Assembly: GCA_964608905.1 (NCBI GenBank)
Contig: CAZSQE010000001.1
Span: 1 to 30,982, forward strand
Source of the DNA: an uncultured bacterium
GTDB taxonomy: Bacteria; Eisenbacteria; RBG-16-71-46
Reading direction: 5' to 3'
DNA length: 30,982 nucleotides
Part shown: positions 11,083-23,763 of the stretch, in pieces
How the letters are laid out: each line of letters opens with the position of its first letter
Numbering within the stretch: position 1 is the first letter of the stretch
The notes under the pieces: model-generated
Told to the model about the DNA's origin: nothing
What the model saw: only the letters and a program-made list of their open reading frames with translations
Databases searched by the model: none
Made by a program: the position numbers and the translations under genes

Positions 11083-13110
11083 TCAGTACGCCCGCAGCTC
11101 CACGCGCATCGTCCGCCCGGGGCGCGGGAGCCCGTAGGCGTCGAACTGGACGGCGTCGGTCAGGTTGTCGAACGCCGCCCGGAGCTGGAGGCCGCGGAAC
11201 CACCCGCCGCCGTGGACCGGCCAGTCCCGCGACAGCTCGACGTCCAGCTGTCCCGCCGGGGCGAGCCTCGACTCGACGTCGTGCTCCGGGTCGATGGCGG
11301 ACTGCTCCCCCGTGAAGCGCGCCTCCACGGCCGCGTGCAGCCCCCGGCCGACCGGCATCCGTACGCGCAGGCCCCCCATCCACTCCGGCGTGTTCTCGGG
11401 CCGCGTGAGCCCGGCGGCCGGGTCGAGCACCCGCACGTCCTGCCCGACGGCGTCGGCGCTCAGCTCCAGGACGCCGACCGCGTGCGACGCGAGGACCTCG
11501 ACGCCGACGCTGCGGACGCCCTCCTGGTTGACGCGTTGGTAACGCTCGCCCGGCGGGCGGATGCGCACCACGGCATCCGAGAGATGGTGGTGGAATCCGA
11601 CCACCTGCAGGCTCCCGCGCGACGTGCGGGACGTCACGCCGGTCTCGAGGGCGACCAGGTGCTCGGGCCGGAGGTCCGGGTTGGGCTCGAACGTCCCGAG
11701 CGCGCCGGAGTAGAGCTCGCGCAGCGACGGGAAGCGCGCCCTCCGGCTCGCGCCGGCGTGGACGGTCGTCGCGCCGCGGCCGACGCGGGCCGCGACGCCG
11801 AGGCGGCCGCCCCACTGGCCGAGGGCCTCGAACGACGGCTTGTTCCCCGTCTCGGGCGTGTCGGCCCCGTCGAGGGTCGCGCCCGCGCTCAGCGCGAACT
11901 CGCGCACGACGCCGGCGCCGGGCACGCGGGCCAGCGCCTCGGCGGCCCCGCTCCAGAGGCGCTGGCGATAGGCAGTCGACACGCCGTCGAGGATCTCGTC
12001 GTGCCGGACGTCGCCGTACGAGAACGCGGCGCGAACCTCGCCCCGGCCGCCCAGGGTCTGCAGCGCCGTGCCCCGCAGCGTGAGCACGCCGTCGTCGGCG
12101 TCCTCCTCGGCGGTCACGGTGGCGTAGTCGCGTGACTCGTAGGCGTCGATCTCCGTCCGCCCGCGGTCGTACCCGCCGCTCACCTGCAGGTCGGCCCGGC
12201 CGCCCCACGGCATCGCGTGGCTGCCGGTGCCGGCGGAGACGATCCCGATGCCGCGGGCGATGTGCGGGTAGCGCCAGAACCGGGCGGAGGCCACGCCGAG
12301 CTGCGCCGCGATGCCGCGCTCGGCGCGATAGCCGAGCCCGAGCACGGAGAGGTGCGCCCCCCGCTCGGCATCCACGCGCAGAGCGACGAACCCGTTCGAC
12401 TCCCGGAAGTCGGTGTTGAGGCGCTCGTCGCGGTCGGCGGGCACCGGCTCCTCGATGCCCCGCGGCAGCGTCTGCCCCGGCGAGCGGCGCTGGCCGGCGC
12501 CCGCGCGGGCCGTGAGCACGCCCCAGCCCAGGTCGCGCGGGACCGTGACGGCTCCCGCCAGTCCGAACCCGCCGAGTCCGTCAACGCCGGCGCGGAGCTG
12601 GGAGGAGGCCCGCCGTCCTTCGACGTCGGACGGGGCCGTGCCGAGTTCCACGACCCCGCCGAGGGTGTTGGGCCCGTGCGTGAGCGACGACAGCCCGCGC
12701 ACGAGCGTCACCCGGTCGATCGCGAGCGCCGGGATCACCGAGACGTCCGCCCGGCCGTCCCAGGCGAAGGTCAGCGGCACTCCGTCCAGCAGGACGGCCA
12801 CCTGCCGGGACTCGGAGCCGCGCACGGTCACCTCGGCTTCGCCGCGCGAGTTCGTCCGGATGTGGGTGCCGGGCAGAGCGCGGAGCACCTGTTCCACCGT
12901 CGGCATGGACTCGAGCGGCAGCGAGTCGAGCCTGGCGGTGACCATCCCGGCCCCCTCCGGGGTGGCCGCGGGCCGCGGGCCGCGCACGAGGACCTCGGGC
13001 AGCTCGACGAGCAACGTGTCGGCGGGAGGCGATGGCCCGTGTGCGGCCGCGTCCGCCGTCCAGAGGCAGAGGGCAAGCACCGTCAACAGCCGTCGCGGCC
13101 GCCGAAGCAC
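11083..13110 (-). CDS. TonB-dependent receptor
   Basis: GTG at 13110 follows AGGAGG. Plug motifs LRALPG, VTVRGSESRQVAVLLDGVP, IDRVTLVRGLSSLTHGPNTLGGVV. Barrel end FDNLTDAVQFDAYGLPRPGRTMRVELRAY. Confidence 0.92.
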   Translation of the reverse strand: MLRRPRRLLTVLALCLWTADAAAHGPSPPADTLLVELPEVLVRGPRPAATPEGAGMVTARLDSLPLESMPTVEQVLRALPGTHIRTNSRGEAEVTVRGSESRQVAVLLDGVPLTFAWDGRADVSVIPALAIDRVTLVRGLSSLTHGPNTLGGVVELGTAPSDVEGRRASSQLRAGVDGLGGFGLAGAVTVPRDLGWGVLTARAGAGQRRSPGQTLPRGIEEPVPADRDERLNTDFRESNGFVALRVDAERGAHLSVLGLGYRAERGIAAQLGVASARFWRYPHIARGIGIVSAGTGSHAMPWGGRADLQVSGGYDRGRTEIDAYESRDYATVTAEEDADDGVLTLRGTALQTLGGRGEVRAAFSYGDVRHDEILDGVSTAYRQRLWSGAAEALARVPGAGVVREFALSAGATLDGADTPETGNKPSFEALGQWGGRLGVAARVGRGATTVHAGASRRARFPSLRELYSGALGTFEPNPDLRPEHLVALETGVTSRTSRGSLQVVGFHHHLSDAVVRIRPPGERYQRVNQEGVRSVGVEVLASHAVGVLELSADAVGQDVRVLDPAAGLTRPENTPEWMGGLRVRMPVGRGLHAAVEARFTGEQSAIDPEHDVESRLAPAGQLDVELSRDWPVHGGGWFRGLQLRAAFDNLTDAVQFDAYGLPRPGRTMRVELRAY

Positions 13111-13226
13111 CTGTCGAGCCTCCTGTGGCGGGGTCTTCCCTGCCGGCGTCCTGGCATGCCCAAGCCGCAGTGGAGCCGAGTCCCCGGCGCTCCCTGCCCT
13201 GCGCGGCGGCGATGCCTCTACGGCGG

Positions 13227-13303
13227 TGGTGGCCCCGGCCGGAGTCGAACCGACGACACGCGGTTTAGGAAACCGCTGCTCTATCCGTCTGAGCTACGGG
13301 GCC
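13227..13303 (-). tRNA. tRNA-Arg(CCT), 77 nt, CCA encoded
   Basis: Acceptor stem GGCCCCG/CGGGGCC followed by ACCA; D-arm GCTC/GAGC; anticodon stem GCGGT-TTCCTAA-ACCGC; T-loop GGTTCGACTCC. Confidence 0.97.
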
Positions 13304-13309
13304 GTACGG

Positions 13310-13331
13310 CAGCAAGATAGCGCACTTTGCT
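13310..13331 (-). promoter_or_regulatory. Probable tRNA promoter region (-10 TATCTT), duplicated at 19136-19157
   Basis: The 22-mer cagcaagatagcgcactttgct is identical in both places and sits at the same offset from tRNA position 1. Confidence 0.65.
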
Positions 13332-13341
13332 GAGCGAGCAA

Positions 13342-13363
13342 ATCAAGCGGGCATCAAGCGGGC
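13342..13363. repeat. Tandem 11-bp direct repeat at a cassette end
   Basis: atcaagcgggc occurs at 13342-13352 and 13353-13363. A related catcaagc occurs at 19168-19175. Confidence 0.7.
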
Positions 13364-13513
13364 ACGCGGTCCATCAGACCGCGTGCCTCGCAGATCGCAT
13401 CCCGCACGCGGCCGGCAAACGGTGACAGCGCGCACCGACATAGTCAGCACCCACCGTGATCGGCGGGACTTCCTTGCCGCCTTTCGACTGATGTACACGG
13501 AGACGGGTCAAGC

Positions 13514-13696
13514 TCACACGACCGGACAACTAGGCTCGCTCGCAAGCGCCCTTTGCGAGTACCGGAGAGCCTCCCTGCCACGACGTTGACATGCTGCTAT
13601 CCAGCTGAGCCGGGTAAGGAACCAGTGGTGACCAGGACTGCGCTGCAGTTCGGCCAGGATGAGCCGCCGCGCTGCGGGCCATTTCCTTCGGTCCAC
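13514..13696 (-). pseudogene. Probable TPR-like gene remnant
   Basis: ARRLILAELQRSPGHHWFLTRLS...EALRYSQRALASEPSCPVV resembles a TPR helix pair, and two in-frame TGA stops follow closely. Confidence 0.35.
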
Positions 13697-13843
13697 CAGC
13701 TCAGCGAATCTGGCTTCCTTGGTCTCCGCAGCTACCGCCCACCTGCAATGGCTAGCCTCTCCGCCTCTCGCCTCACGGCCTCACACGCGGCTCCGTATGC
13801 CGTCCGAGCACCTGTCTCACATGCCCCTCCTCCAACCGCCCGG

Positions 13844-14344
13844 TCACGCGGCAGTGAGGGCGCTGCTCACGCCTCGCGGGGTGAGGACACAACGGCGACC
13901 AATCAAGACATAGATGAGCGGAAGACCCACCACCCTGAGCAGCGGAAGGGACAGCATTAGCCATACGTCGCCGGGATTCTCGTATGTGCGGTTCATGTGC
14001 GTCATGAAGAGCCTCATCAGGCGCGCGAGCTCAGGTACAACGAAGACGAGCACCACGCCGAGAAAGAGGAGGCTCGACACGGCAAGCGACCGCCCACCGA
14101 CGCCATCCGCTGCGACGTACCTGCGAAACACGTGGCTCCCGAGAACCGTCGCGCCTGCGATCAGAGACATCGAAACGACGGTGAGCAGGAGGGCGACCCA
14201 GTAGGGCTCGTCAGCTGACCCGCGCAGCGCAGCGTTCAAGGCATACCAGAGCAAGGTGTTCACCCCCAACGTGAGGACCCACCCAACTCCCAAGGCGGAC
14301 ATAAGCCCGACAACGAGAAAATGCTTCAGCGCCTGCGCGATCAT
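13844..14344 (-). CDS. Membrane protein of unknown function, directly downstream of the HEPN gene
   Basis: Four to five hydrophobic segments. ATG at 14344 follows GGGAGGGAG and lies 14 nt after the HEPN stop. Confidence 0.7.
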   Translation of the reverse strand: MIAQALKHFLVVGLMSALGVGWVLTLGVNTLLWYALNAALRGSADEPYWVALLLTVVSMSLIAGATVLGSHVFRRYVAADGVGGRSLAVSSLLFLGVVLVFVVPELARLMRLFMTHMNRTYENPGDVWLMLSLPLLRVVGLPLIYVLIGRRCVLTPRGVSSALTAA

Positions 14345-14358
14345 GCTCCCTCCCAAGG

Positions 14359-14742
14359 CTAGGAAGCCTGCCCGATGATTCGCGCAGCTTCGAGGACGAA
14401 CTCCCTCGCCTGGGCGATCACCGCCGTCGCCTCGTCGGCCGTGATGAGGGCGTCCACGCCGTAGTCCGCTTGGATCCGGACATCGAACGCGTCGAGCAGC
14501 CAGCGGTGGAAGCGGGCATCCAGCAGTCCCGGGCGCACCAGTTGCTCGCCGAGCGCGCTATGGACTGCGCTGTGCTTGCGGAAGTGAAGCCCCCGCTCGA
14601 ACAGGAGCGCTTCGGCCGCGTAGAGCATGGCGTAGTACGCGCGGCCTGCGGCGAAGTCCGATTCGTCCGCCTGCACGAGGGCCTCGGCGGCGTGAATCGC
14701 CCTCTCAGCCTTGCTGAGGAGACGGCGGCTCTCGCTCTTCAC
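14359..14742 (-). CDS. HEPN-domain protein (UPF0332-like), toxin partner of an MNT-HEPN pair
   Basis: GRAYYAMLYAAEALL...KHSAV...RIQADY (Rx4Y-type motif). The GTG start overlaps the MNT stop (GTGA). Confidence 0.88.
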   Translation of the reverse strand: MKSESRRLLSKAERAIHAAEALVQADESDFAAGRAYYAMLYAAEALLFERGLHFRKHSAVHSALGEQLVRPGLLDARFHRWLLDAFDVRIQADYGVDALITADEATAVIAQAREFVLEAARIIGQAS

Positions 14743-15059
14743 GCGGCGATGGCCTCCATCCGGGCGTTGGCGAGGAAGGGTGAATCACGCTCGATCCAGT
14801 CGCGCTCGGGGACCAGCACCCGACTGATGCTGAGGCCGGACTCCAGGGAGAGAGCCGAGATCAGCACACTCGTGCGGCGGACCTCGCCGAGGTAGCCGTC
14901 CACTCGATCGAGCACGATGATGACGTCCACGTCGGATTCGGCGTCTTCCTCCCCGCGGGCATAGGAGCCATAGAGGTACACCCCGCGCAGGCGCGCGGCG
15001 TACACCTGCTCAAGCTCCGCGCGAAGACGGGCCAGCAAGCCCTTGATCTTCTCGCTCAT
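14739..15059 (-). CDS. Minimal nucleotidyltransferase (MNT), antitoxin of an MNT-HEPN pair
   Basis: LYGSYARGEEDAESDVDV contains the GS...DxD motif. ATG at 15059 follows GGAGG. Confidence 0.9.
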   Translation of the reverse strand: MSEKIKGLLARLRAELEQVYAARLRGVYLYGSYARGEEDAESDVDVIIVLDRVDGYLGEVRRTSVLISALSLESGLSISRVLVPERDWIERDSPFLANARMEAIAA

Positions 15060-15325
15060 GGCGTCCTCCAGCTTGGACCGTGGTCTCGGTCCCCGCCTGC
15101 CCGGCAGTCTCGCTGATCCGAAGCAGGCCAAGCCTGTCCGGAACGTTGCTGCAGTCCAGCCTAGCACAGGACAGTGAGCAGGGCGGAGCCGAGTCGGGGT
15201 GGCCCGCCGGCGCGGCTTGCGCTACGGCCGCGGCGTCGGGGCGCCTCGCCTGAGTGGCTACGACCTTGGCTACGAGAACCGTATCAATCCATGTCCGCTC
15301 GTGTCCTCTCCTGTCCAGTCGAACT

Positions 15326-15362
15326 CGAAGCCCCCGCGCCGGCATCGGACGCGGGGGCTTCG
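15326..15362. terminator. Hairpin about 70 nt downstream of tRNA-half copy 2
   Basis: Perfect 13-bp inverted repeat cgaagcccccgcg / cgcgggggcttcg. Confidence 0.6.
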
Positions 15363-15429
15363 GGATGAGCGCTGTCCACAGCGACTTAGCGTGGTCTGTT
15401 CGAATTGCCCCGAGAATGGACCGGAGCGC

Positions 15430-15468
15430 TTAGGAAACCGCTGCTCTATCCGTCTGAGCTACGGGGCC
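15430..15468 (-). repeat. tRNA-Arg 5' half, copy 2 (first 39 nt, ending at A38), identical to the tRNA
   Basis: ttaggaaaccgctgctctatccgtctgagctacggggcc is identical to 13265-13303. Confidence 0.97.
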
Positions 15469-15519
15469 GTGGGTGTCATGCCGATTCGCTCGCAAGAAAC
15501 TGCACTAGTATCCACCGCT

Positions 15520-15993
15520 TCACTTCAGCTCCTTAGTGATGCCCTTGAGGCTCCACGCGATGACTCGGATCCCGTGCTTCTTGATCGCAGGCGGCAGTTT
15601 CCGTGGAAGGTCTCCCCCATGGACGCCGACCACCTTCTTCCCGAGTTTGACGCTCTCTTCAACCTCCCAATTCACCCACTCGCTGTTCGCTGTCTGGTCA
15701 GACACGTAGACAAGGGTCACGGACGACTGCCGGATGCGCTCGAGGATGCCCTTCCGGATGTAGTCGGCCCGCTCGCTGTCGAATGGCGCCCGCAGCGACC
15801 AATCATTGAAATTCAGTGCGCTACCTTCCTTCTGGGCCTGCCGACGTAACAGTTCGACCTGTGGCTTGTCTTCGTTGGTGAAGCTGATGAAGACGTTTCG
15901 GTTTGCGCCCGCCGGGGTATTCCGCTTCCTCGCCAGTACTCTCCGCCGTTTGAGAGCCGCAGGCGAAGGACGTTTGGCACTGGCACCGCCCAC
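15520..15993 (-). CDS. TIR-domain protein (MTH538/DUF1863, ThsB-like)
   Basis: NVFISF...IRQSSVTLVYVSDQTANSEWVNWEV retains the putative catalytic Glu. The GTG start overlaps the upstream TAG. Confidence 0.85.
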   Translation of the reverse strand: MGGASAKRPSPAALKRRRVLARKRNTPAGANRNVFISFTNEDKPQVELLRRQAQKEGSALNFNDWSLRAPFDSERADYIRKGILERIRQSSVTLVYVSDQTANSEWVNWEVEESVKLGKKVVGVHGGDLPRKLPPAIKKHGIRVIAWSLKGITKELK

Positions 15994-17282
15994 TATGGGC
16001 CTCTGCGCGCGCGGGCTTCGCGAATGAATCCCAGGTTCAGAGCCGTGGTCTCGGGCTCCCAGCTCTCGCGGACCGCTGCCAGCGCCGGCACGAGCGCATC
16101 TGCTGCCGCGGCCTCATCCCCACCCAGCACCGCCAGCTCCATGAGGGTTGCGTGGTCCCAGTAGTTCGGGTTGCCAGAGGTGAGCCGGCGCTTCACCGAG
16201 TACTTGACGACCGGAAGGATCTCTCGGATGCGGTCGTCGGACGGATCGCGCAGCTCCATCAGCGCGAGCGCGTTGATTCCCGGGTAGGCATCGCGCCAGT
16301 CAGCCTGGAACCCCCTCAAGTACGCATCGATCGCTTCGTCTAGAAGCGCTCTCGCCATTGTTGTGTTGCCGGCTTGGACGGCAGCATGCCAGCGGTCTTT
16401 GTACACACGGCCGAGGATGCCGAACGTCTCACTAGAAGGGCCGCGCCGCGAGACGAGCTGAAGCAGCACGAGTTCGGCATCCTCTCCCTGTCCGGAGCGA
16501 TTGAGGGCCAGAGCGAACTGCTCCTGCACCATCACGGATGCCTGCAGGGGCGGGGACATGAGGTCCCGTAGTCGAATCATGTCCTCCCAGGCCCCGATCG
16601 CGCGATAGGAGAGAAAGAGATCGATAACCACACCGACCTCTACGTCGGAGACGTCCCCCAGCTCAGCCTCGAGCGCACGCAGCGCCTCGAGACCGCCCTC
16701 ATTCAGGGTTCTCGCCCGCGCAAGACGCTCCCTCAATTCCTGGCTGTAACCCACTTGCTCGCGGAACAACTCCGCTCTTGAGCGATCCAGGTGTGGTGTC
16801 GGCAGACCTTCGACGAAGTGGAAGACGGGGCCATCGGCGTGAGTCGACCGAGCCGCGCTCAACGCGTCGGCGATCGCAGTTCGAGTGGTGTCGACATCCT
16901 GCGGCTGGCCGTCGGCTCCGAGCTGGTAGCGAATGCAGCGAAGGCCCTGCATTTCAAAGGGTAGGTGCTCACCTGGAGCGACGAGCAGCACGGTGCGTTG
17001 GGGGCGGACGGCATGTCGAGCGCCCAGCGCGTAGAAAGCATTGGTGCTGGCCACTGTCAGGTCCGCAAGCGCGTAGTGAGACAGAACCAGCCGCTCGATC
17101 ATCGGCTTGTGAATGACTCCGCCGAGGTCCTCCTGATCCACGAGGATGGCGTCGAGGCCAGCGTCCTTGATGGCGGGTGCGATCAGGTCGCGGTACACGC
17201 TGTCGAAGTCAATCCAATTGCCCGCCGCGCCTTGCCTGCGGCCGAGCGGCATCAGCACGAAGCACAACTCTTTCGACATCAT
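15993..17282 (-). CDS. DUF4071/MAP3K TRAF-binding-type TPR protein with an N-terminal nucleoside-deoxyribosyltransferase-like domain
   Basis: CFVLMPLG...DFDSVY..LIAPAI...ADLT...NAFYALGARHA, then LFLSYRAIGAWEDMI...QFALALNR...SSETFGILGRVYKDRW...YPGINA...YWDHAT. ATG-ATG start follows AGGAG. Confidence 0.8.
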   Translation of the reverse strand: MMSKELCFVLMPLGRRQGAAGNWIDFDSVYRDLIAPAIKDAGLDAILVDQEDLGGVIHKPMIERLVLSHYALADLTVASTNAFYALGARHAVRPQRTVLLVAPGEHLPFEMQGLRCIRYQLGADGQPQDVDTTRTAIADALSAARSTHADGPVFHFVEGLPTPHLDRSRAELFREQVGYSQELRERLARARTLNEGGLEALRALEAELGDVSDVEVGVVIDLFLSYRAIGAWEDMIRLRDLMSPPLQASVMVQEQFALALNRSGQGEDAELVLLQLVSRRGPSSETFGILGRVYKDRWHAAVQAGNTTMARALLDEAIDAYLRGFQADWRDAYPGINALALMELRDPSDDRIREILPVVKYSVKRRLTSGNPNYWDHATLMELAVLGGDEAAAADALVPALAAVRESWEPETTALNLGFIREARARRGP

Positions 17283-17469
17283 GGCTCCTATAGCCGGGTT
17301 CCTCGCTAGCACGGATTGCCCGTTCGCTCCGAGCGCCTCGAGGAATGCTCCCTGAAGTCAGGAGGGCAACTCGATTCCCTCGCCAGTTCCGCGCGATGGT
17401 GCTCCAGGGAGTGGTCCGAGTCAACAGTGATGAGGCGACGGGCTCTTGCACCCTTGTCTTCCGTGGTAG

Positions 17470-18384
17470 TTACGGCTTCGTGCTTCTCAGAACGACGAGC
17501 CTCGACTGGCGGACCTCGTTGTTGTCGGCCAGGAGATAGAGCCGCCCGAACGTGTCCTCGGCTATTCCTTCCAGAACCCCGAAGAGAGATGGGGACGTAC
17601 CCGAGTCCCGGCCCTCAAGGAGCGAGTCGATGGCCGCGTAGTTGATCCACTCCCGCGGTTTCGACTCCAGTCCCGGACGGTCGAGGAAGGGCTGCACCAT
17701 TCCGATCAGGCGCCGCTGGCGGTCGATCACGCTCACCGTCTTGCCACCGGGTCGGAACGCGGCACCCGATTGCGTCTGAAACGCCGGCGTCGAAAGAAGC
17801 GTACCGGAGGAGTCCGGAACCAGTCGGTATCCGAACGCGTCGGGTTCCAGCACCAAGAGTCGCGCATAGCTTGGCGCCGGCCGTTCCTTGAACAGGTAGA
17901 GTTCGACCCGGTCCCCGGCCGCGCGCCGGAGCGCCACCCCCTCCATGCCGCTATTCTCCACCGATTCCCCCGGAGGTGAAGCGATTCCCGAACGCGACAG
18001 GCGAAGCCCCTGGCCTTCAGGAACGAGCAGGTAGAACCAGGAAACCGGCGCGTCACCGGGACCGCGCTCCCCGGAAGCCGCCAGAGGGCCCGGCGCCGTG
18101 GCCGTAGGCGGCAGCCACAAGGTGACCCTCGAGGAGTCGGCGCCCACCACCGTGATCCCCGAGTAGTCGGCTCGATCCGAACCGACCGGAAGGACGTCGT
18201 ACACGGCCAGCACTTCGTGCCGGGAGAGGATCGGAACGAGCGGAACGCCGGCGCTGTCCCGCGGGACGGCGGAAGGCAGACGCTCCGCGTCCGACCTTTC
18301 GGCTCCAGCCGAACAGGAGCCGTCTCGAGCTGCGCCCTGACAGGCGAGGATGGGGAGACCCAGAACCGCCAGGAGCACCAGCAT
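17470..18384 (-). CDS. Putative lipoprotein of the esterase-like-phytase / beta-propeller type
   Basis: LPILAC lipobox-like motif; DYSGIT, NSGMEGVAL and LEGIAED...LYLLADNN motifs. Start codon uncertain. Confidence 0.6.
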   Translation of the reverse strand: MLVLLAVLGLPILACQGAARDGSCSAGAERSDAERLPSAVPRDSAGVPLVPILSRHEVLAVYDVLPVGSDRADYSGITVVGADSSRVTLWLPPTATAPGPLAASGERGPGDAPVSWFYLLVPEGQGLRLSRSGIASPPGESVENSGMEGVALRRAAGDRVELYLFKERPAPSYARLLVLEPDAFGYRLVPDSSGTLLSTPAFQTQSGAAFRPGGKTVSVIDRQRRLIGMVQPFLDRPGLESKPREWINYAAIDSLLEGRDSGTSPSLFGVLEGIAEDTFGRLYLLADNNEVRQSRLVVLRSTKP

Positions 18385-18999
18385 GGCGAGAAGAGTGCCG
18401 GCGTGGGCGGCAGAGCACGGTAGCGGGCGAGAGCCTGGCGGATCGCGAACAGCTCGGCCTCGGCCACGGTCATGATCTCTCCCCTGAAGCGACCCGGTCT
18501 CGCAGCCGCGGGATAACGACTCGCTCCAACGGGAGACGGTAGTACAGATCCCCGCGGAAGGCCCATCACCCCTTCGCTGGCACCGGGTAGTCGAGGATGA
18601 CGGGTTCAGCCGGACGGCTCAACCCGAGCCTGGTGCGCCAGCGTCCGCACCGCGCTCTTGAAGTTCGCCTGGATCTACCTTTCTTCGTGGAGCCCTTACC
18701 CCTATTGGGAGGGGTTCCACGACGGTCACGCAGACGGGCACGATTGGCCTCGCCCGGTCAAGTTCTGGCTACGGATCGAAGGACTGCTGGGTTCCTCTCC
18801 CGGCGGACGTCTGAAGCGCTGTCGCGTGAGTTTGAGCCCACGGCCCGAGCCGCTCGCCACGTCCACGCCGATCGTGCCAGGCAATCCGGTCGCCGATTGG
18901 TCAGAGACGACTAAGTCCGGATGCGTGGTAGCCGTTTGGTAGCCACGTCCCGGTCCACTTCCCTCCCGTCCTGACCACGCGAGTCCTCCAGAGACCAAG

Positions 19000-19029
19000 C
19001 GCCCCAGGAGGCGCTAACCCCCTGGGGCG
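19000..19029. terminator. Hairpin about 60 nt downstream of tRNA-half copy 3
   Basis: cgccccagg (19000-19008) pairs with cctggggcg (19021-19029). Confidence 0.5.
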
Positions 19030-19090
19030 GCTGGAACTTCTTGGCGGCGATGGTGCTACGGCGTGAGGGCTGTGGAACCTGTGGGGGAGC

Positions 19091-19129
19091 TTAGGAAACC
19101 GCTGCTCTATCCGTCTGAGCTACGGGGCC
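19091..19129 (-). repeat. tRNA-Arg 5' half, copy 3 (39 nt, identical), with the duplicated promoter region
   Basis: Exact 39-nt match to the tRNA, followed by the shared 22-mer at 19136-19157. Confidence 0.97.
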
Positions 19130-19240
19130 ACGCGACAGCAAGATAGCGCACTTTGCTCAGCGGGAACATCAAGCAGAGCAGCGGCCTAGTGCGACCGGGA
19201 TCGTCCGCACTCAAGTCCAGGCAGGATAGACGGCCCCACC

Positions 19241-21535
19241 TCAGAGGTTCATCTTGCGCAGAAGGGCCTGGTAGCGGGCGTCGCTGCGCGCCGGCTCCAA
19301 GAACGGATAGGTCTTGATCGGCATCACTAGCGGGTCACGGGTGTCGATGGCCTTGTCGAGCCACTCAAACGCGGCATTCCAATCACCCAGGCCGATGTGG
19401 CCGAACGCGAACGTCGAGGGGGGGACGTAGGCGGACCTGGCAGCTTCGGCCGCACGCTCCAGCAGCGCGCGCGCGTCGTCGGCACGGCCGGCCCGCCCGT
19501 AGGCAAAGGCCAGGAATCCGAGCGTGAATGGCGAGCCCCTCGACAACTCGTGCGCCCTCTCCAGCGCCGCGACCGCCTCCGTTCGCGCGCCAATCGTGTC
19601 CCGATGCATGCCGAGCGTCCAGTAGCCCAGAAAGTGGTCGGGATCAAGAGCAATCATGTGCTGCGCCTCGTCGTTCACAGAATCCAGGCGGCCGGCCAGC
19701 AGGGCCATTATGGAGAGCCACCAGCGGGTATGGACCGACAGCGGATCGATGCGCACGATGCCCTCGATCTCGGCCATCGCCTCGGCGGCTCGGCCGTGGG
19801 GCAAGAGGCCGCTGATCGCGTGGCGCAACTTCACGAGCGGCGACTCGGGGTTCAGCTCCAGGGCGCGACGGAGCTCGCGGTCGACCTCGGGCCAGTTGTA
19901 GTCAAGCTCCTTGCGAAGCATGCCGAGGAGCGCGTGCGTCTCGGCCAGCGTGTCATCCAGCTCCAGCGCGCGCAGAGCATGCCAGATGCTGGTGGAAAAG
20001 GCGTCGCGCGGGGGCACGTTGCCGAAGAAGCCCAGGAACCAGTACAGCTCTGCCATCGAGTCGTGCGCAACCGCGAAAGATGGATCCCGTTGGAGGGCAC
20101 GCTCGTAGCACGCCATCGCCTTCGCCAGGGCCTCGGGTGTCCCCCTTGCGAAGTGGTGGCGGCCTTCAAGGAATGCAGTGTAGGCCTCGGAATCGACGGC
20201 CGGCCGCCTTCGCGCGCCGCCGTCCCGGGCCAATTCACCCCGGAGCCGCTCGGCGACCGCTGCCGCGACGTCGTCCTCGAGGACTAGCAGGTCGGTCACC
20301 TCGCGATCGTAGCGCTCGCTCCACAGATGAGACCCGTCCCGCGTTGAGACGAGCTGCGCCGTCACGCGCACATGGGAGTGAGCCCGGCGCACGCTTCCCT
20401 CGAGGATGCTCTCGACGCCGAGCCGTGCTCCGGCCTCGCGCACGTCGAGGCCGAGGCGCCCGACCGCGAAGGAGGAGGTACGGGCGATCACGCGCAGCCC
20501 GCGAATCTGCACGAGCGCGTTGATGATCTCCTCGGCCAGACCCTCGCAGAGGTAATCATCTTCACGTGCGCCGCCAATGTTCGCGAAGGGCAGCACCGCA
20601 ATCGTCCTATCCTCTGACCGGGCGACTCCCGAGCGGAGGGCTTCCTGGCTGCGCATGGCCGCGCGTGTTGGAGCGGTCGAGCTGGCTGACGCTGTGTTGC
20701 GCTCGGACGCCCGCAGCCCGTCTGCGAACTGCGCCAACGATGCAGCACGATCCGCCGGGATCTTGGCCAGCGCCTGCTGCAGCGCCTCGGCCACCGTCGC
20801 CGGCACCACCGGCCGCAACTCCGTCACCGGCCGCGGTGTCACGTTCAGATGCTGGTGCAGCAGGCTCGCCGCTGTCGGTCCCGCGAACGGAGGAGCCCCC
20901 GCTAGCATCTCGTAGAGAACGCAGCCCAGGCTGTAGAGGTCCGAGCGGCCGTCGAGATCCTGACTCCCCGCCGCCTGCTCAGGGCTCATGTAGGCCGGTG
21001 TGCCCACCACGATGCCAGCCGCCGTCAGATTCTCCCCTCCCGCGGCGGCCACCACACGCGCGATTCCGAAATCGGCCACCACCGCGTGGCGGCCCTCGAG
21101 CAGGATGTTCTCGGGCTTGATGTCGCGATGGACCACATCATGGCTGTGCGCGTAACTCAGCGCGTCAGCCACCTCGCGGGCGATCTGGAGCGCGTCCTCC
21201 AGCGGGAGCTGCTTCTCCCGGGCCAGCCTGCAGCGCAGCGAGTCGCCTTCCACGTAAGGCATGACGTAGAAGAGCAGCCCGTCGGCAGCCCCGGAGTCGT
21301 GGAGCGGCAGGATGTGTGGGTGGGTGAGCCGCGCGACGGTTTCAATCTCGCGCAGAAAACGCTCGGGGCCGACTGCAGCCGCAACGTCAGGGTCGAGCAC
21401 CTTGATGGCCACGCGGCGGTGGTGCTTGAGGTCCTCGGCGAGGAACACCGTGGCCATGCCACCCTGGCCGAGCGCGCGCTCGATCCGGTAGCGGTCGGAG
21501 AGGGCATCCTGCAGGCGCTGCGACGGGTCGGGCAA
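19241..21535 (-). CDS. Hanks-type Ser/Thr protein kinase with a TolB-like (IAVLPF) domain and TPRs
   Basis: LGQGGMATV, VAIK, HRDIKPEN, DFG and GTPAYMSPEQ, then IAVLPFANIG...YLCEGLAEEIINAL and TPRs. TTG start follows GGAGG. Confidence 0.93.
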   Translation of the reverse strand: MPDPSQRLQDALSDRYRIERALGQGGMATVFLAEDLKHHRRVAIKVLDPDVAAAVGPERFLREIETVARLTHPHILPLHDSGAADGLLFYVMPYVEGDSLRCRLAREKQLPLEDALQIAREVADALSYAHSHDVVHRDIKPENILLEGRHAVVADFGIARVVAAAGGENLTAAGIVVGTPAYMSPEQAAGSQDLDGRSDLYSLGCVLYEMLAGAPPFAGPTAASLLHQHLNVTPRPVTELRPVVPATVAEALQQALAKIPADRAASLAQFADGLRASERNTASASSTAPTRAAMRSQEALRSGVARSEDRTIAVLPFANIGGAREDDYLCEGLAEEIINALVQIRGLRVIARTSSFAVGRLGLDVREAGARLGVESILEGSVRRAHSHVRVTAQLVSTRDGSHLWSERYDREVTDLLVLEDDVAAAVAERLRGELARDGGARRRPAVDSEAYTAFLEGRHHFARGTPEALAKAMACYERALQRDPSFAVAHDSMAELYWFLGFFGNVPPRDAFSTSIWHALRALELDDTLAETHALLGMLRKELDYNWPEVDRELRRALELNPESPLVKLRHAISGLLPHGRAAEAMAEIEGIVRIDPLSVHTRWWLSIMALLAGRLDSVNDEAQHMIALDPDHFLGYWTLGMHRDTIGARTEAVAALERAHELSRGSPFTLGFLAFAYGRAGRADDARALLERAAEAARSAYVPPSTFAFGHIGLGDWNAAFEWLDKAIDTRDPLVMPIKTYPFLEPARSDARYQALLRKMNL

Positions 21536-21565
21536 GGGGCAGCCTCCGGACCACTGTGCCCGGGC

Positions 21566-21577
21566 AATCTAGCACAG
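21566..21577 (-). promoter_or_regulatory. Extended -10 promoter element of the kinase gene
   Basis: CTGTGCTAGATT about 30 nt upstream of the start; identical to 10026-10037. Confidence 0.55.
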
Positions 21578-21597
21578 GTTCTGACCGGCGCCACCGC

Positions 21598-21624
21598 CCC
21601 AGATGGCGTGGCCCAGATGGCGTG
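21598..21624. repeat. 13-bp direct repeat pair at a cassette end
   Basis: cccagatggcgtg occurs at 21598-21610 and 21612-21624, 37 nt from tRNA-half copy 4. Confidence 0.75.
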
Positions 21625-21661
21625 CAGTTGGCCCGCCCAGGGTGCTACCGCCGGCCAGACC

Positions 21662-21698
21662 AGGAAACCGCTGCTCTATCCGTCTGAGCTACGGGGCC
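21662..21698 (-). repeat. tRNA-Arg 5' half, copy 4 (37 nt, ending at T36, identical)
   Basis: aggaaaccgctgctctatccgtctgagctacggggcc. A TG-TAAGAT-like -10 lies upstream on the minus strand near 21717-21724. Confidence 0.96.
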
Positions 21699-22063
21699 AC
21701 TGATTGAGCTGCGGCATCTTACAGCAAACAGGCCGAAGGGCTCACGCGCTCCTGGGTGACGGTTGGGTGATCCGCGGTACCTGCACTCGCCGCCGCAGGA
21801 GCCAGTGCACGGTCACCGGGTCGAAGCCGACGACCCCGTCGCCCGACTGGCCCGTGGCGAGGCTCGATGTCACTTCGCCGGCGGGCCAACCGCCGCCCCC
21901 CCTTGCTCCTTCCCCCCCGGTTGGCGTAAGAACTGCCTCGGGACGGGCAGGATGCTCGGACTCTGCGATCCTTCCGCGGCCCGTGGCCCGCGCAGTACCT
22001 CCGCGCGGACGTTTCACGTCGTTCAGGCACTCGCGTCACCCGGCGCGAGAAGAGGAGGTCCCG

Positions 22064-23158
22064 GTGTTCAAGAAGGCCGTGTTCCCGGGCAAGTACATTC
22101 AGGGCGTCGGCGCCATCGGCGAATTGCCCTCGCTGATCCGGCGGTTCGGTGGGCAAGGGCTGGTCCTGGCCTCGCCGTCCGTGAAGTCCGGGATCCTGCC
22201 CGGATGCGGTCTCGCGCTGGGCGAGGAGACCATCGGGGTCGAGGAATTCAACGGCGAGTGCTGCGAGGAGGAGATGGCGCGGCTGGCGGGCATCATCCGG
22301 CAGAGGAACGTGCGTGTGCTGGTCGGCATGGGCGGCGGCAAGACCATCGACACGGCGAAGATCGCCGCCGACCGGGCCGGCATCACGGTGATCGTCGTTC
22401 CCACCATCGCCTCGACGGATGCGCCGTGCAGCGGGTGCGCCGTGATCTACTCCCGGGAGGGCGTCTTCCAGTCGGTGTGCTACCAGAGGATGAACCCGGC
22501 TGCGGTGCTCGTAGATCTAGAGATCATCGCGGCGGCGCCGACGCGCTTCCTGGTGGCCGGGATGGGCGACGCGCTATCCACCTGGTTCGAGGCCCGCTCC
22601 TGCGACCGCACCCGGTCGCCGAACGAGTGCGGCGGGACCTCGACCGTCGCCGGGCTCCAGATCGCCCGGCTCTGCTACGAGACGCTCCTGGCCGACGGAG
22701 TCGCCGCGAAGGCCGCCAGCGAGGCGCGTGTAGTCACCCCGGCGTTGGACCGCATCGTCGAGGCGAACACGCTCCTGAGCGGCCTGGGGTTCGAGAGCGC
22801 CGGGCTGGCCTCCGCCCACGCCATCCACAACGGGCTCACCGCCCTGCCGGAGACCCACGCCTTCTACCACGGCGAGAAGGTGGCCTTCGGTGTGTTGGCC
22901 GGGCTTCAGCTCACCGACTCGAGCCCGGACGAGTCGGCTGCGGTCTTCTCGTTCTGCGAGGACATCGGCCTCCCGACGAGGCTCATGGACATCGGCCTCG
23001 GCGACGCCAGCCGGGAGCACCTCCTGAAGGCGGCAGAGGCATCCTGTGCCCCCGGTCAACCGATTCATCACGAGCCGGGCGTGATCACTCCCGAAAGGGT
23101 CCTCCACGCCATGCTCGCGGCGGACGCAATGGGCAGGGCCAGACGCACGGGTGCGTGA
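22064..23158 (+). CDS. gldA: Glycerol dehydrogenase
   Basis: GTG at 22064 follows AGGAGG. Motifs PGKYIQG, GGGKTIDTAK, PTIASTDAPCS, GMGDALSTWFE, LSGLGFESAGLASAHAIHNGLT and HGEKVAFG. Confidence 0.92.
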   Translation: MFKKAVFPGKYIQGVGAIGELPSLIRRFGGQGLVLASPSVKSGILPGCGLALGEETIGVEEFNGECCEEEMARLAGIIRQRNVRVLVGMGGGKTIDTAKIAADRAGITVIVVPTIASTDAPCSGCAVIYSREGVFQSVCYQRMNPAAVLVDLEIIAAAPTRFLVAGMGDALSTWFEARSCDRTRSPNECGGTSTVAGLQIARLCYETLLADGVAAKAASEARVVTPALDRIVEANTLLSGLGFESAGLASAHAIHNGLTALPETHAFYHGEKVAFGVLAGLQLTDSSPDESAAVFSFCEDIGLPTRLMDIGLGDASREHLLKAAEASCAPGQPIHHEPGVITPERVLHAMLAADAMGRARRTGA

Positions 23159-23535
23159 TCTGCACGACGCCCACGGGCCATGCGTACCGGGGCGTTGCGC
23201 AGGCTCCCTGCCCGGGGGCTGCCACAGAGCCGAATCCGCGGGCAGCTAGCTAGCCCTGCGGGACGGAAGAACTACCGCGCAACCGCGAGCGCAGACCCAG
23301 GTGGCGGAGGTTCCCCGCACCGCACGTCTCCTCCAACGGAATCGAGGATATCCCGCGAGCCCGTCGACTCCGCTTGGCTTTCCTCGTCGTCGATTGGCCG
23401 CCGAGTCAGGGTCCTCTCCCATCCCTTCCTGTCCATTCCTGACCACAAGACGAAGCCCCACTCGCGGCACCAACCGCAAGCGGGGCATTGCGTGACATGG
23501 ACTTTGGTGGACAGGCTCATCTTGCCCGTGACGTC

Positions 23536-23574
23536 TTAGGAAGCCGCTGCTCCATCCGTCCGAGCTGCGGGGCC
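23536..23574 (-). repeat. tRNA-Arg 5' half, copy 5 (39 nt, four mismatches)
   Basis: ttaggaagccgctgctccatccgtccgagctgcggggcc. In tRNA sense the changes are T8C, A14G, A21G and T31C. Confidence 0.92.
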
Positions 23575-23763
23575 ACGGGCAGGGGACCATGGCCTCTCAT
23601 TTCGACTTCCGCAAGCCACCTCCGCTGTACGTCCGGCGATCACCACCACTGCGTCGCGCGAGCGGAGTCTGCGCACCACGGCGCGGCCGATCCCGTCTGC
23701 GGCACCAATGATGAGGAACGCGCCTGCCGCAGCGAGGCTCAGGGTGTTCGTGTCGGAAGTCAT
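23536..23763 (-). pseudogene. Truncated short-chain dehydrogenase (N-terminal Rossmann segment only)
   Basis: LIIGAADGIGRAVVRRL...VVIAGR. The ATG overlaps the PP2C stop (ATGA). Similarity fades after about 48 codons and the frame ends at the TAA inside tRNA-half copy 5. Confidence 0.65.

What the first reader, a model, noticed from the sequence alone, without database searches (positions are those of the whole stretch)
13304..19175. Two cassettes with unrelated cargo share the same left end, including a replacement tRNA promoter
Seen: 13310-13331 and 19136-19157 are an identical 22-mer (cagcaagatagcgcactttgct, with a -10-like TATCTT on the minus strand) at the same offset from tRNA position 1. 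Both are followed by agcg and then atcaagc. In the copy next to the intact tRNA, cagcaa/ttgctg forms an inverted repeat with an 11-nt spacer. Inference: an element inserting on the 5' side must supply a promoter for the rebuilt tRNA, so this is a conserved element arm, and cassettes A and C belong to one family that swaps cargo.
Basis: partly seen in the sequence, partly recalled or inferred. Interest (0 to 1): 0.68.

Follow-up and report, generated by a model that had tools for sequence, protein, structure and literature searches.

The report
Replacement promoter carried by tRNA-inserting gene cassettes
The shared 22-base block is the conserved core of a promoter-like module that small, integrase-less gene cassettes carry with a spare front half of the arginine tRNA gene, so each insertion rebuilds the gene it splits; this is a rarer, front-side form of a known way that mobile DNA uses tRNA genes.

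Summary
The 22-mer is exact at 13310-13331 and 19136-19157, each 6 nt upstream of tRNA-Arg(CCT) position 1. No other copy exists in the 2.9-Mb genome, a Candidatus Eisenbacteria MAG.

The 22-mer is the invariant core (GCGCTATCTT and neighbouring bases) of an 85-95-nt "type 1 arm". In relatives and metagenomes this arm always sits at the same distance in front of this tRNA or of its displaced 5' halves. I found 58 metagenomic copies, 45 before fragments and 13 before intact genes. The genes upstream of it are very diverse.

The window holds a tandem array of four integrase-less cassettes (A-D). It was most likely built by insertion into the anticodon loop from the 5' side. Relatives carry a dedicated tyrosine integrase, with Xis-like genes, directly upstream of the same tRNA.

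Cassette A belongs to a definable family. Seven members share a ~180-nt distal arm and the type 1 arm, and their cargo is unrelated. Cassette C shares only the type 1 arm.

A cassette-borne replacement promoter is likely, but transcription was not tested. "One family" holds only for the tRNA-proximal end, and the inverted repeat is incidental.

5'-fragment tRNA islands are known (159 of 3919 in Islander). Earlier scan notes describe similar arrays in other phyla.

The parts
13227..13303 (-). Intact tRNA-Arg(CCT). Its first 39 nt, through the anticodon loop, form the repeated unit.
   Evidence: ARAGORN; Rfam RF00005, 63 bits
13310..13331 (-). 22-mer copy 1, the core of the type 1 arm (GCGCTATCTT block). 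A 6-nt variable linker (13304-13309) separates it from tRNA +1.
13304..13391 (-). Complete type 1 arm of cassette A: linker, 22-mer, GCTTGAT box (a perfect 11-nt tandem duplication at 13342-13363) and an upstream hairpin (13358-13391, -29.8 kcal/mol, z -6.2).
13304..15429 (-). Cassette A. It carries a MNT nucleotidyltransferase (14739-15167) and a HEPN protein (14359-14742), plus about 1 kb of unannotated DNA. No integrase.
   Evidence: The left part is 82% identical in nucleotides to the G007 cassette.
15250..15429 (-). Distal (P') arm of cassette A, family 2. It is shared with six other cassettes that carry different cargo.
15430..15468 (-). Displaced tRNA 5' half, copy 2 (39/39 identical).
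15469..19090 (-). Cassette B. It carries a ThsB-like TIR protein (15520-15993), a MAP3K_TRAF_bd/TPR-S protein (15993-17312) and an unknown 304-aa ORF. Only a short 51-nt arm lies before the tRNA half.
18843..19090 (-). Distal (P') arm of cassette B, family 3. It contains GGTAGCC twice (18927-18933 and 18938-18944), resembling the repeats beside integrase genes in relatives.
19091..19129 (-). Displaced tRNA 5' half, copy 3 (39/39 identical).
19130..19174 (-). Type 1 arm core of cassette C, holding 22-mer copy 2 (19136-19157). The part of the module further upstream is diverged.
19130..21661 (-). Cassette C, carrying a Ser/Thr kinase-TPR protein (19241-21535). Its distal arm (21576-21661) is a singleton in the sample.
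21662..21698 (-). Displaced tRNA 5' half, copy 4 (identity through position 37).
21699..23535 (.). Cassette D, carrying an Fe-ADH-like protein (21704-23158, + strand). It has its own, different arm before copy 4.
23383..23535 (-). Distal (P') arm of cassette D, family 1. It is non-coding, has a terminator-like hairpin and is 74-88% identical across genera.
23536..23574 (-). Displaced tRNA 5' half, copy 5, the outermost. It has 4 substitutions, including U8 and A14.
23575..23731 (-). Type 2 arm in front of the outermost copy (TTGCGG ... CATGGT ... cccgt). The related population X7 does not have this stretch at this junction.

Best explanation
The 22-mer is the most constrained part of a promoter-like module, the type 1 arm. 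The module reads, from upstream to downstream: hairpin, GCTTGAT box, GTGCGCTATCTT, a 10-nt stretch ending in a variable linker, then tRNA +1. It forms the tRNA-proximal end of small mobile cassettes that insert into the anticodon loop of tRNA-Arg(CCT) from the 5' side.

Each cassette carries, at one end, this arm plus a copy of tRNA positions 1-39, and at the other end a distal arm. Recombination in the anticodon loop fuses the cassette's arm and 5' half to the resident 3' half. The working tRNA is then chimeric and is most likely transcribed from the cassette's arm. The previous promoter and 5' half are pushed upstream as a dead stub. The recombinase would be a dedicated tyrosine integrase, which relatives encode directly upstream of this tRNA and which this assembly lacks.

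Four rounds of insertion gave the array D-C-B-A. Cassettes A and C each end in a type 1 arm. The exact 22-nt identity reflects selection on that core, not a recent duplication.

Shown: the anatomy of the array; conservation and constant spacing of the module; conserved ends with swapped cargo for cassette A's family; the link between the integrase and this tRNA in relatives; differences in cassette content between populations.

Inferred: promoter activity and a start a few nt before tRNA +1; integrase-mediated movement in trans; the order of insertion.
For: Array anatomy
- One intact tRNA and four co-oriented 5' halves that end in the anticodon loop, separating unrelated segments of 2.1, 3.6, 2.5 and 1.8 kb.
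- No integrase domain or remnant in the array.

Conservation of the module
- In 17 arms from 13 genomes or contigs, GCGCTA.C.T...G is invariant. There are no indels between it and tRNA +1, while the linker and the rest vary.
- The window's two copies differ at 5 of 6 linker positions and at 4 of 17 positions beyond the 22-mer.
- All five matches at up to 1 mismatch to the 17-nt core in 61 genomes lie beside tRNA-Arg 5' ends.

Metagenomic copies
- 56 metagenome contigs carry 58 copies, 45 before displaced halves and 13 before intact genes. Seven arrays hold two or more copies.
- The 42 ORFs just upstream match 50 different Pfam families.
- Only one 39-aa integrase remnant was found in 307 kb of these contigs.

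Cassette A's family
- Seven family 2 cassettes share about 215 nt at the left end and 57-125 nt at the right end. Their middles are unrelated.

Integrase in relatives
- A clade of integrases 50-69% identical to one another, with HTH_17 Xis-like genes, lies co-oriented 30-1300 nt upstream of the intact tRNA or of fragments in at least 10 relatives.
- Those elements carry other promoter-like arms, with GTAGCC or GTAGCA repeats.

Population differences
- Run X5 holds C and D at over 99% identity but lacks B and most of A.
- Run X7 holds C at 98.7% identity while the flanks are about 94.5% identical, and its junctions differ.

Precedent
- Islander lists 159 of 3919 islands with a 5' tDNA fragment (PMC4383910).
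Against: - No transcription data exist for this region. The one RNA run has essentially no coverage at 13302-13702.
- The generic sigma-70 scan finds no promoter at either copy.
- The -35 is weak: TTGCTC at a 16-nt spacing matches 3 of 6 positions, and the conserved GCTTGAT box lies 21 nt from TATCTT. Other tRNA genes of this genome have canonical TTGACA-17-TAnnnT promoters.
- A 12-14-nt invariant block is more than a -10 element needs, so it could be, or could also be, a protein-binding site.
- Genome G025 has the module before an intact tRNA with no array and no cognate integrase. The module may therefore also be a resident promoter.
- No cognate integrase was found in this 86%-complete assembly, and no excision product has been seen.
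- In X7 and X14, cassette C abuts the tRNA half without the 42 nt that hold the 22-mer. This is most simply a deletion, but it shows the arm is dispensable at a displaced copy.
Confidence: 0.62

Rival explanations
1. The 22-mer would be the signature arm of one element family, so cassettes A and C would be two members of that family, differing only in cargo.
For: - The 22 nt are identical at the same offset in both cassettes.
- Many arrays hold several type 1 arms.
- Cassette A's family does have conserved ends and swapped cargo.
Against: - A and C have unrelated distal arms. A's is family 2, and C's is a singleton among 122 sites.
- Type 1 arms combine with at least six distal-arm clusters.
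- The integrase-bearing elements carry other arms.
- The module also occurs before an intact tRNA in a genome with no array.
Confidence: 0.12
2. The module is simply the resident promoter of this tRNA. The second copy would have arisen by local duplication or by gene conversion between tRNA copies.
For: - G025 has the module before its intact tRNA with no fragments and no cognate integrase.
- Within G008, the arms before the fragment and before the intact gene are almost identical over 46 nt. This would fit homogenisation of copies within a genome.
Against: - The linker differs at 5 of 6 positions, lying between two perfectly identical blocks of 22 nt and 39 nt. A further 4 of 17 positions differ beyond the 22-mer. 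A recent duplication or conversion tract would not leave that pattern.
- The cargo of A and C is unrelated.
- 45 of 58 metagenomic copies stand before displaced halves, with highly diverse upstream genes.
Confidence: 0.12
3. The invariant block is mainly a protein-binding site rather than a promoter. Candidates are an integrase or accessory-factor site of the attachment region, or an operator.
For: - The invariant stretch (12-14 nt) is longer than a -10 hexamer, and its spacing to the tRNA is fixed.
- It fits the sigma-70 consensus poorly.
Against: - The arms next to integrase genes use different repeats (GTAGCC or GTAGCA, GACCGGGAC) and lack this block.
- A rebuilt tRNA needs some promoter, and TATCTT sits where a -10 should be.
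- The two roles are not mutually exclusive.
Confidence: 0.12

Closest known systems
tDNA-targeting genomic islands with a displaced 5' tDNA fragment, including tandem arrays (Islander; PMC4383910)
   Same: - There is an intact tRNA gene plus co-oriented cognate fragments.
- Identity between copies ends in the anticodon loop.
- The inserted DNA restores the split gene.
- A tyrosine integrase is associated with the site in relatives.
- The newest unit lies next to the intact gene.
   Different: - None of the four units in the window, and almost none of about 60 related loci, carries an integrase. Islander requires one per island.
- The units are only 0.6-7 kb long.
- The restored part includes the promoter.
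- Arrays of three or more are rare in Islander (4 cases).
Tycheposons and their degenerate remnants in Prochlorococcus islands (bioRxiv 10.1101/2020.12.28.424599)
   Same: - Repeated integration at a tRNA pushes older elements inward.
- Partial tRNAs are scattered through a variable island.
- The cargo is defence or accessory genes.
   Different: - The phylum and the recombinase clade are different. Relatedness between the recombinases was not tested.
- Here the repeated piece is the 5' half together with a promoter-like arm.
- Here integrase-less units with conserved bipartite ends dominate.
Integrons and integrase-less attC clusters (CALINs)
   Same: - Small cassettes without a recombinase are stacked in tandem.
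- Cassette ends are conserved and cargo varies.
- Insertion is polar, next to a fixed site.
- The recombinase may act in trans.
   Different: - There is no IntI, attI or Pc.
- The repeats are tRNA halves plus arms, not attC hairpins.
- The recombination partner is a functional tRNA gene.
- Each cassette brings its own promoter-like arm.
Lambda-type attP organisation (core flanked by P and P' arms with arm-type sites, Xis-dependent excision)
   Same: - Both sides of the core carry conserved arms.
- Short direct repeats (GTAGCC, GTAGCA) lie next to the integrase gene in relatives and occur in cassette B's distal arm.
- HTH_17 Xis-like genes are present in the G008 element.
   Different: - Binding to the arms was not tested.
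- The P arm here also has to drive a tRNA gene.
- Type 1 arms lack the GTAGCC repeats.

Membership tests
tDNA islands with displaced 5' fragment (Islander class) | An intact tRNA gene plus co-oriented fragments of the same gene bounding the inserted DNA | tested here: met
   One intact gene and four 5' halves, all on the minus strand
tDNA islands with displaced 5' fragment (Islander class) | Identity between the gene and its fragment ends at a defined sublocation (anticodon loop or T loop) | tested here: met
   Identity runs through position 39 in three copies and position 37 in one. These positions mark the end of the anticodon loop.
tDNA islands with displaced 5' fragment (Islander class) | A tyrosine integrase gene inside each island | tested here: not met
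   No PF00589 hit and no tblastn remnant in 13304-23574. No cognate integrase in the assembly at E<=1e-20. The feature is met in relatives G008, G012, G024, G021, G005, G006, G033, G001 and G054.
tDNA islands with displaced 5' fragment (Islander class) | Demonstrated excision or integration | not testable with these tools
   Only indirect evidence: cassette content and junctions differ between closely related populations.
Integron | An intI integrase with an adjacent attI site and Pc promoter | tested here: not met
   No integrase in the 31-kb contig. The four PF00589 hits in the genome lie on other contigs.
Integron | Cassettes bounded by attC sites (imperfect palindromes) | tested here: not met
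   The boundaries are direct copies of the tRNA 5' half plus arms. The 22-mer region has no significant fold.
Sigma-70-type promoter | -35 and -10 hexamers at 16-18 nt spacing, upstream of the transcript start | tested here: inconclusive
   TATCTT lies at -16 to -11 and is invariant. The -35 is weak, and the scan threshold is not reached. Other tRNA genes of this genome have canonical promoters. No 5'-end data are available.
Family 2 / type 1 cassette family (defined here) | A ~180-nt distal arm of cluster 2 at one end and a type 1 arm at the other | tested here: met
   Cassette A meets both features, together with G007, L066, L097, L111 and L142 (L131 has the distal arm only). Cassette C does not meet it, because its distal arm is a singleton.
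Tycheposons | The hallmark deep-branching tyrosine recombinase and replication module | not tested
   No such genes are in the window. The Eisenbacteria integrase was not compared with tycheposon recombinases.

The most novel reading that the evidence does not exclude
The locus is a working gene-capture platform built on a tRNA gene. Integrase-less mini-cassettes have bipartite conserved ends: a distal arm, and a promoter plus tRNA 5' half. A dedicated integrase encoded elsewhere, or in other cells, moves them in trans. Every capture replaces the promoter and front half of an essential tRNA gene. This would amount to an integron-like system that evolved independently. Earlier scan notes suggest it may recur in several phyla.
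Probability: 0.3. Interest if true: 0.72.

Novelty: new variant of a known kind. Interest (0 to 1): 0.5.

Why it matters
Mobile elements that use tRNA genes nearly always replace the 3' end, which needs no promoter. This lineage routinely replaces the 5' half. The inserted DNA must therefore also supply transcription signals for an essential gene. The comparative data show a small set of interchangeable promoter-like modules doing this.

Three things follow if the reading is right:
- It gives a natural, testable set of portable tRNA promoters in an uncultured phylum.
- It explains how a defence and accessory-gene island is built without resident recombinases.
- It adds a case in which conserved cassette ends and a trans-acting integrase give integron-like behaviour by a different route.

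Tried and rejected
1. Integrase remnants in the window. tblastn with five cognate integrases found nothing.
2. Known RNA families. Rfam matches only the tRNA.
3. An 82-aa ORF at the start of the family 1 distal arm (23272-23520). One G019 copy has an in-frame stop, and conservation follows a hairpin, so I read the stretch as non-coding.
4. Ser/Thr kinase followed by the type 1 arm and the tRNA as ancestral native synteny. Kinase genes precede type 1 arms in six loci. However, they are only 34-54% identical paralogues of a family with dozens of copies per genome, and they are missing at this locus in same-genus genomes.
5. L072 as an "empty site". I dropped this after its genome turned out to hold a four-fragment array on another contig.
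6. The X7 junction that lacks the 22-mer, as proof that the arm is not part of cassette C. The diverged upstream part of the module is kept there, so a 42-nt deletion is simpler.
7. The inverted repeat as a functional hairpin. It is not conserved and not stable.
8. Transcription evidence. The RNA run X14 has no useful coverage of the arm.
9. Williams 2002 (integrase sublocation preference) could not be retrieved. What I recall of it is not used as evidence.
Full report
**Observation.** The window is the longest contig of a 2.9-Mb, 86%-complete MAG. Its relatives are labelled Candidatus Eisenbacteria. tRNA-Arg(CCT) lies on the minus strand at 13227-13303. Its first 37-39 nt, up to the end of the anticodon loop, recur four more times in the same orientation. 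These copies have tRNA position 1 at 15468, 19129, 21698 and 23574, and the outermost has 4 substitutions.

The 22-mer is exact at 13310-13331 and 19136-19157, each 6 nt from tRNA position 1. No match is expected by chance. The genome holds no third copy, even with 3 mismatches allowed. Similarity runs on for 17 more nt (13 of 17 match), giving an 84-nt repeat (D8). The 6-nt linker differs at 5 of 6 positions. It is not conserved and does not fold significantly (z -0.05).

**Surroundings.** The four segments between the tRNA halves are unrelated:
- A: MNT/HEPN pair plus about 1 kb of unknown DNA.
- B: ThsB-like TIR protein, a MAP3K_TRAF_bd/TPR-S protein and one unknown ORF.
- C: Ser/Thr kinase-TPR protein.
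- D: Fe-ADH-like protein.

None has an integrase domain, and there is no remnant of one.

**Relatives.** At least 19 of 36 genomes of the same family, and several outside it, carry displaced 5' halves of this tRNA, often as arrays. One clade of tyrosine integrases (50-69% identical to the 339-aa G008 protein) lies co-oriented just upstream of the intact tRNA or of a fragment. This is seen in G008, G012, G024, G021, G005, G006, G033, G001, G009 and G054. It has the Phage_integrase and Phage_int_M domains. The G008 element also has two HTH_17 Xis-like genes. The window's own assembly has no member of the clade.

Insertion from the 5' side, with a displaced 5' fragment, is a documented minority class: 159 of 3919 Islander islands (PMC4383910). 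Stacking of elements at a tRNA, with degenerate remnants, has been described for tycheposons.

**The arms.** The sequences in front of tRNA position 1 fall into at least three families:
- Type 1 holds the 22-mer. It consists of an upstream hairpin (in the window 13358-13391, -29.8 kcal/mol, z -6.2), a GCTTGAT box, the block GTGCGCTATCTT, and 10 nt up to the tRNA.
- Type 2 has TTGCGN and GATAGT boxes, and GTAGCC/GTAGCA or GACCGGGAC repeats further upstream.
- Type 3 has two GTAGCC-like repeats and TAACTY, with the integrase gene directly upstream.

In an alignment of 17 type 1 arms from 13 genomes or contigs, GCGCTA.C.T...G is invariant. No indel separates it from the tRNA, while the linker and most other columns vary. 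The exact identity of the window's two 22-mers is therefore the signature of constraint, not of recent copying.

- In 61 related genomes, all five matches at up to 1 mismatch to the 17-nt core lie beside tRNA-Arg 5' ends. Matches with 2 mismatches are at the level of the reversed-pattern control.
- A genome-collection scan found 7 contigs with the core at the fixed offset, and a metagenome scan found 56.
- Of the 58 metagenomic copies, 45 precede displaced halves and 13 precede intact genes. Seven arrays hold two or more copies.
- The 42 ORFs just upstream match 50 different Pfam families. Kinases account for 7 of the 42. The rest include beta-lactamase-fold proteins, histidine kinases, a chromate transporter and reductases.
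- In 307 kb of these contigs there is a single 39-aa integrase remnant.

**Are A and C one family?** I clustered the first 160 nt after each displaced half, which is the distal arm of the next cassette. Cassette A's arm belongs to cluster 2. Cassettes that start with that arm end in a type 1 arm in 6 of 7 cases. The seven members are window A, G007, L066, L097, L111, L142 and L131. They share about 215 nt at one end and 57-125 nt at the other, and their middles are unrelated. The exceptions are the MNT/HEPN pair shared by the window and G007, and a partial kinase match. That is a real family with conserved ends and swapped cargo.

Cassette C's distal arm is a singleton. Type 1 arms also combine with at least five other distal-arm clusters. 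A and C therefore share the tRNA-proximal module, not a whole element backbone.

**Population evidence** (Logan contigs, so presence is informative but linkage is limited).
- A sediment run (X5) holds C and D at over 99% identity and the tRNA flank at about 98%. It has almost no coverage of B or of 13302-14103. This fits A and B being the latest additions next to the tRNA, or their loss.
- A groundwater population (X7, also seen in RNA run X14) holds C at 98.7% identity while both flanks are about 94.5% identical. It joins 15350 to 23732, and there the tRNA half abuts 19172, so the 42 nt with the 22-mer are missing. The diverged upstream part of the module is retained, so I read this as a deletion in a displaced copy.

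Cassette content and order thus differ between close relatives.

**Is it a promoter?** This is inferred.

For:
- Its position and fixed spacing.
- An invariant TATCTT at -16 to -11.
- The logical need for a promoter in front of a rebuilt gene.
- Other tRNA genes of this genome have promoters in the same place.

Against:
- Those other promoters are canonical TTGACA-17-TAnnnT, whereas type 1 has only a weak -35 at the right spacing.
- The generic scan calls nothing.
- No 5'-end data exist.
- The length of the invariant block leaves room for a protein-binding role.

**The refuting condition.** G025 has a type 1 arm before its intact tRNA and shows no fragment within 12 mismatches on the contig. 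It has none elsewhere at E<=0.001 and no cognate integrase. The module can therefore also be the resident promoter, or the last trace of an old insertion. A second apparent empty site (L072) was withdrawn, because its genome has an array on another contig. A single local tandem duplication is excluded by the unrelated cargo and the differing linkers.

**Verdict.** The best reading is a cassette-borne replacement promoter module for a tRNA gene that is repeatedly split from its 5' side (confidence about 0.6). The "one family" claim holds only for that end. The kind is known: 5'-fragment tDNA islands and tandem arrays. The variant is less so: integrase-less mini-cassettes with conserved bipartite ends, one of them promoter-like. 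Earlier notes of this scan describe similar arrays in Chloroflexota and Planctomycetota. They are leads, not evidence.

Noticed in passing
window 23383-23535 (minus strand): A ~190-nt non-coding block follows the outermost tRNA half (family 1 distal arm). It is 74-88% identical in G019, G035 and G017, and has a strong hairpin followed by a U-rich stretch (z -2.9). It could act as a terminator that stops read-through from the displaced promoter.
   Followed up: partly
window 18927-18944: GGTAGCC occurs twice, 4 nt apart, in cassette B's distal arm. The same heptamer repeats lie between the integrase gene and the tRNA in G012, G021, G008 and G024. These are candidate integrase arm-type sites.
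   Followed up: partly
window 13342-13363: A perfect 11-nt tandem duplication (atcaagcgggc twice) sits at the upstream edge of the A/C homology. G019's intact-tRNA arm has a similar duplication at the same place in the alignment.
   Followed up: no
relatives: G009:C25, G020:C1:3433263, G008:C9:147252, G012:C158:33544-37106: Paralogues about 50% identical to the 5'-side integrase lie downstream of the same tRNA in the opposite orientation. Several genomes also have displaced 3' halves (tRNA positions 33-77). The same anticodon loop therefore seems to be used from both sides by sister integrases.
   Followed up: partly
window 13032-13225: The related population in run X7 has 2058 other bases in place of these 192 nt, just downstream of the tRNA. 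This is a variable insertion on the 3' side.
   Followed up: no
window 21576-21661: Cassette C's distal arm contains a short direct repeat (GCCACGCCATCTGG-like). Runs X5 and X7 carry 18-nt and 4-nt insertions at 21607, so the repeat number varies.
   Followed up: no
window 19241-21535 and relatives: Ser/Thr kinase-TPR or kinase-PD40 genes are greatly expanded in these genomes, with dozens of hits per genome. They stand immediately upstream of type 1 arms in at least six loci (window C, G019, L066, G009, G033, L072).
   Followed up: partly
window 15520-17312: A ThsB-like TIR protein lies next to a 439-aa MAP3K_TRAF_bd/TPR-S protein in cassette B. With the MNT/HEPN pair in A, this makes the array look like a defence island.
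   Followed up: no
L042 (G004:C1) 12534-13613: An IS110-family transposase sits just after a displaced tRNA half in the G004 array.
   Followed up: no
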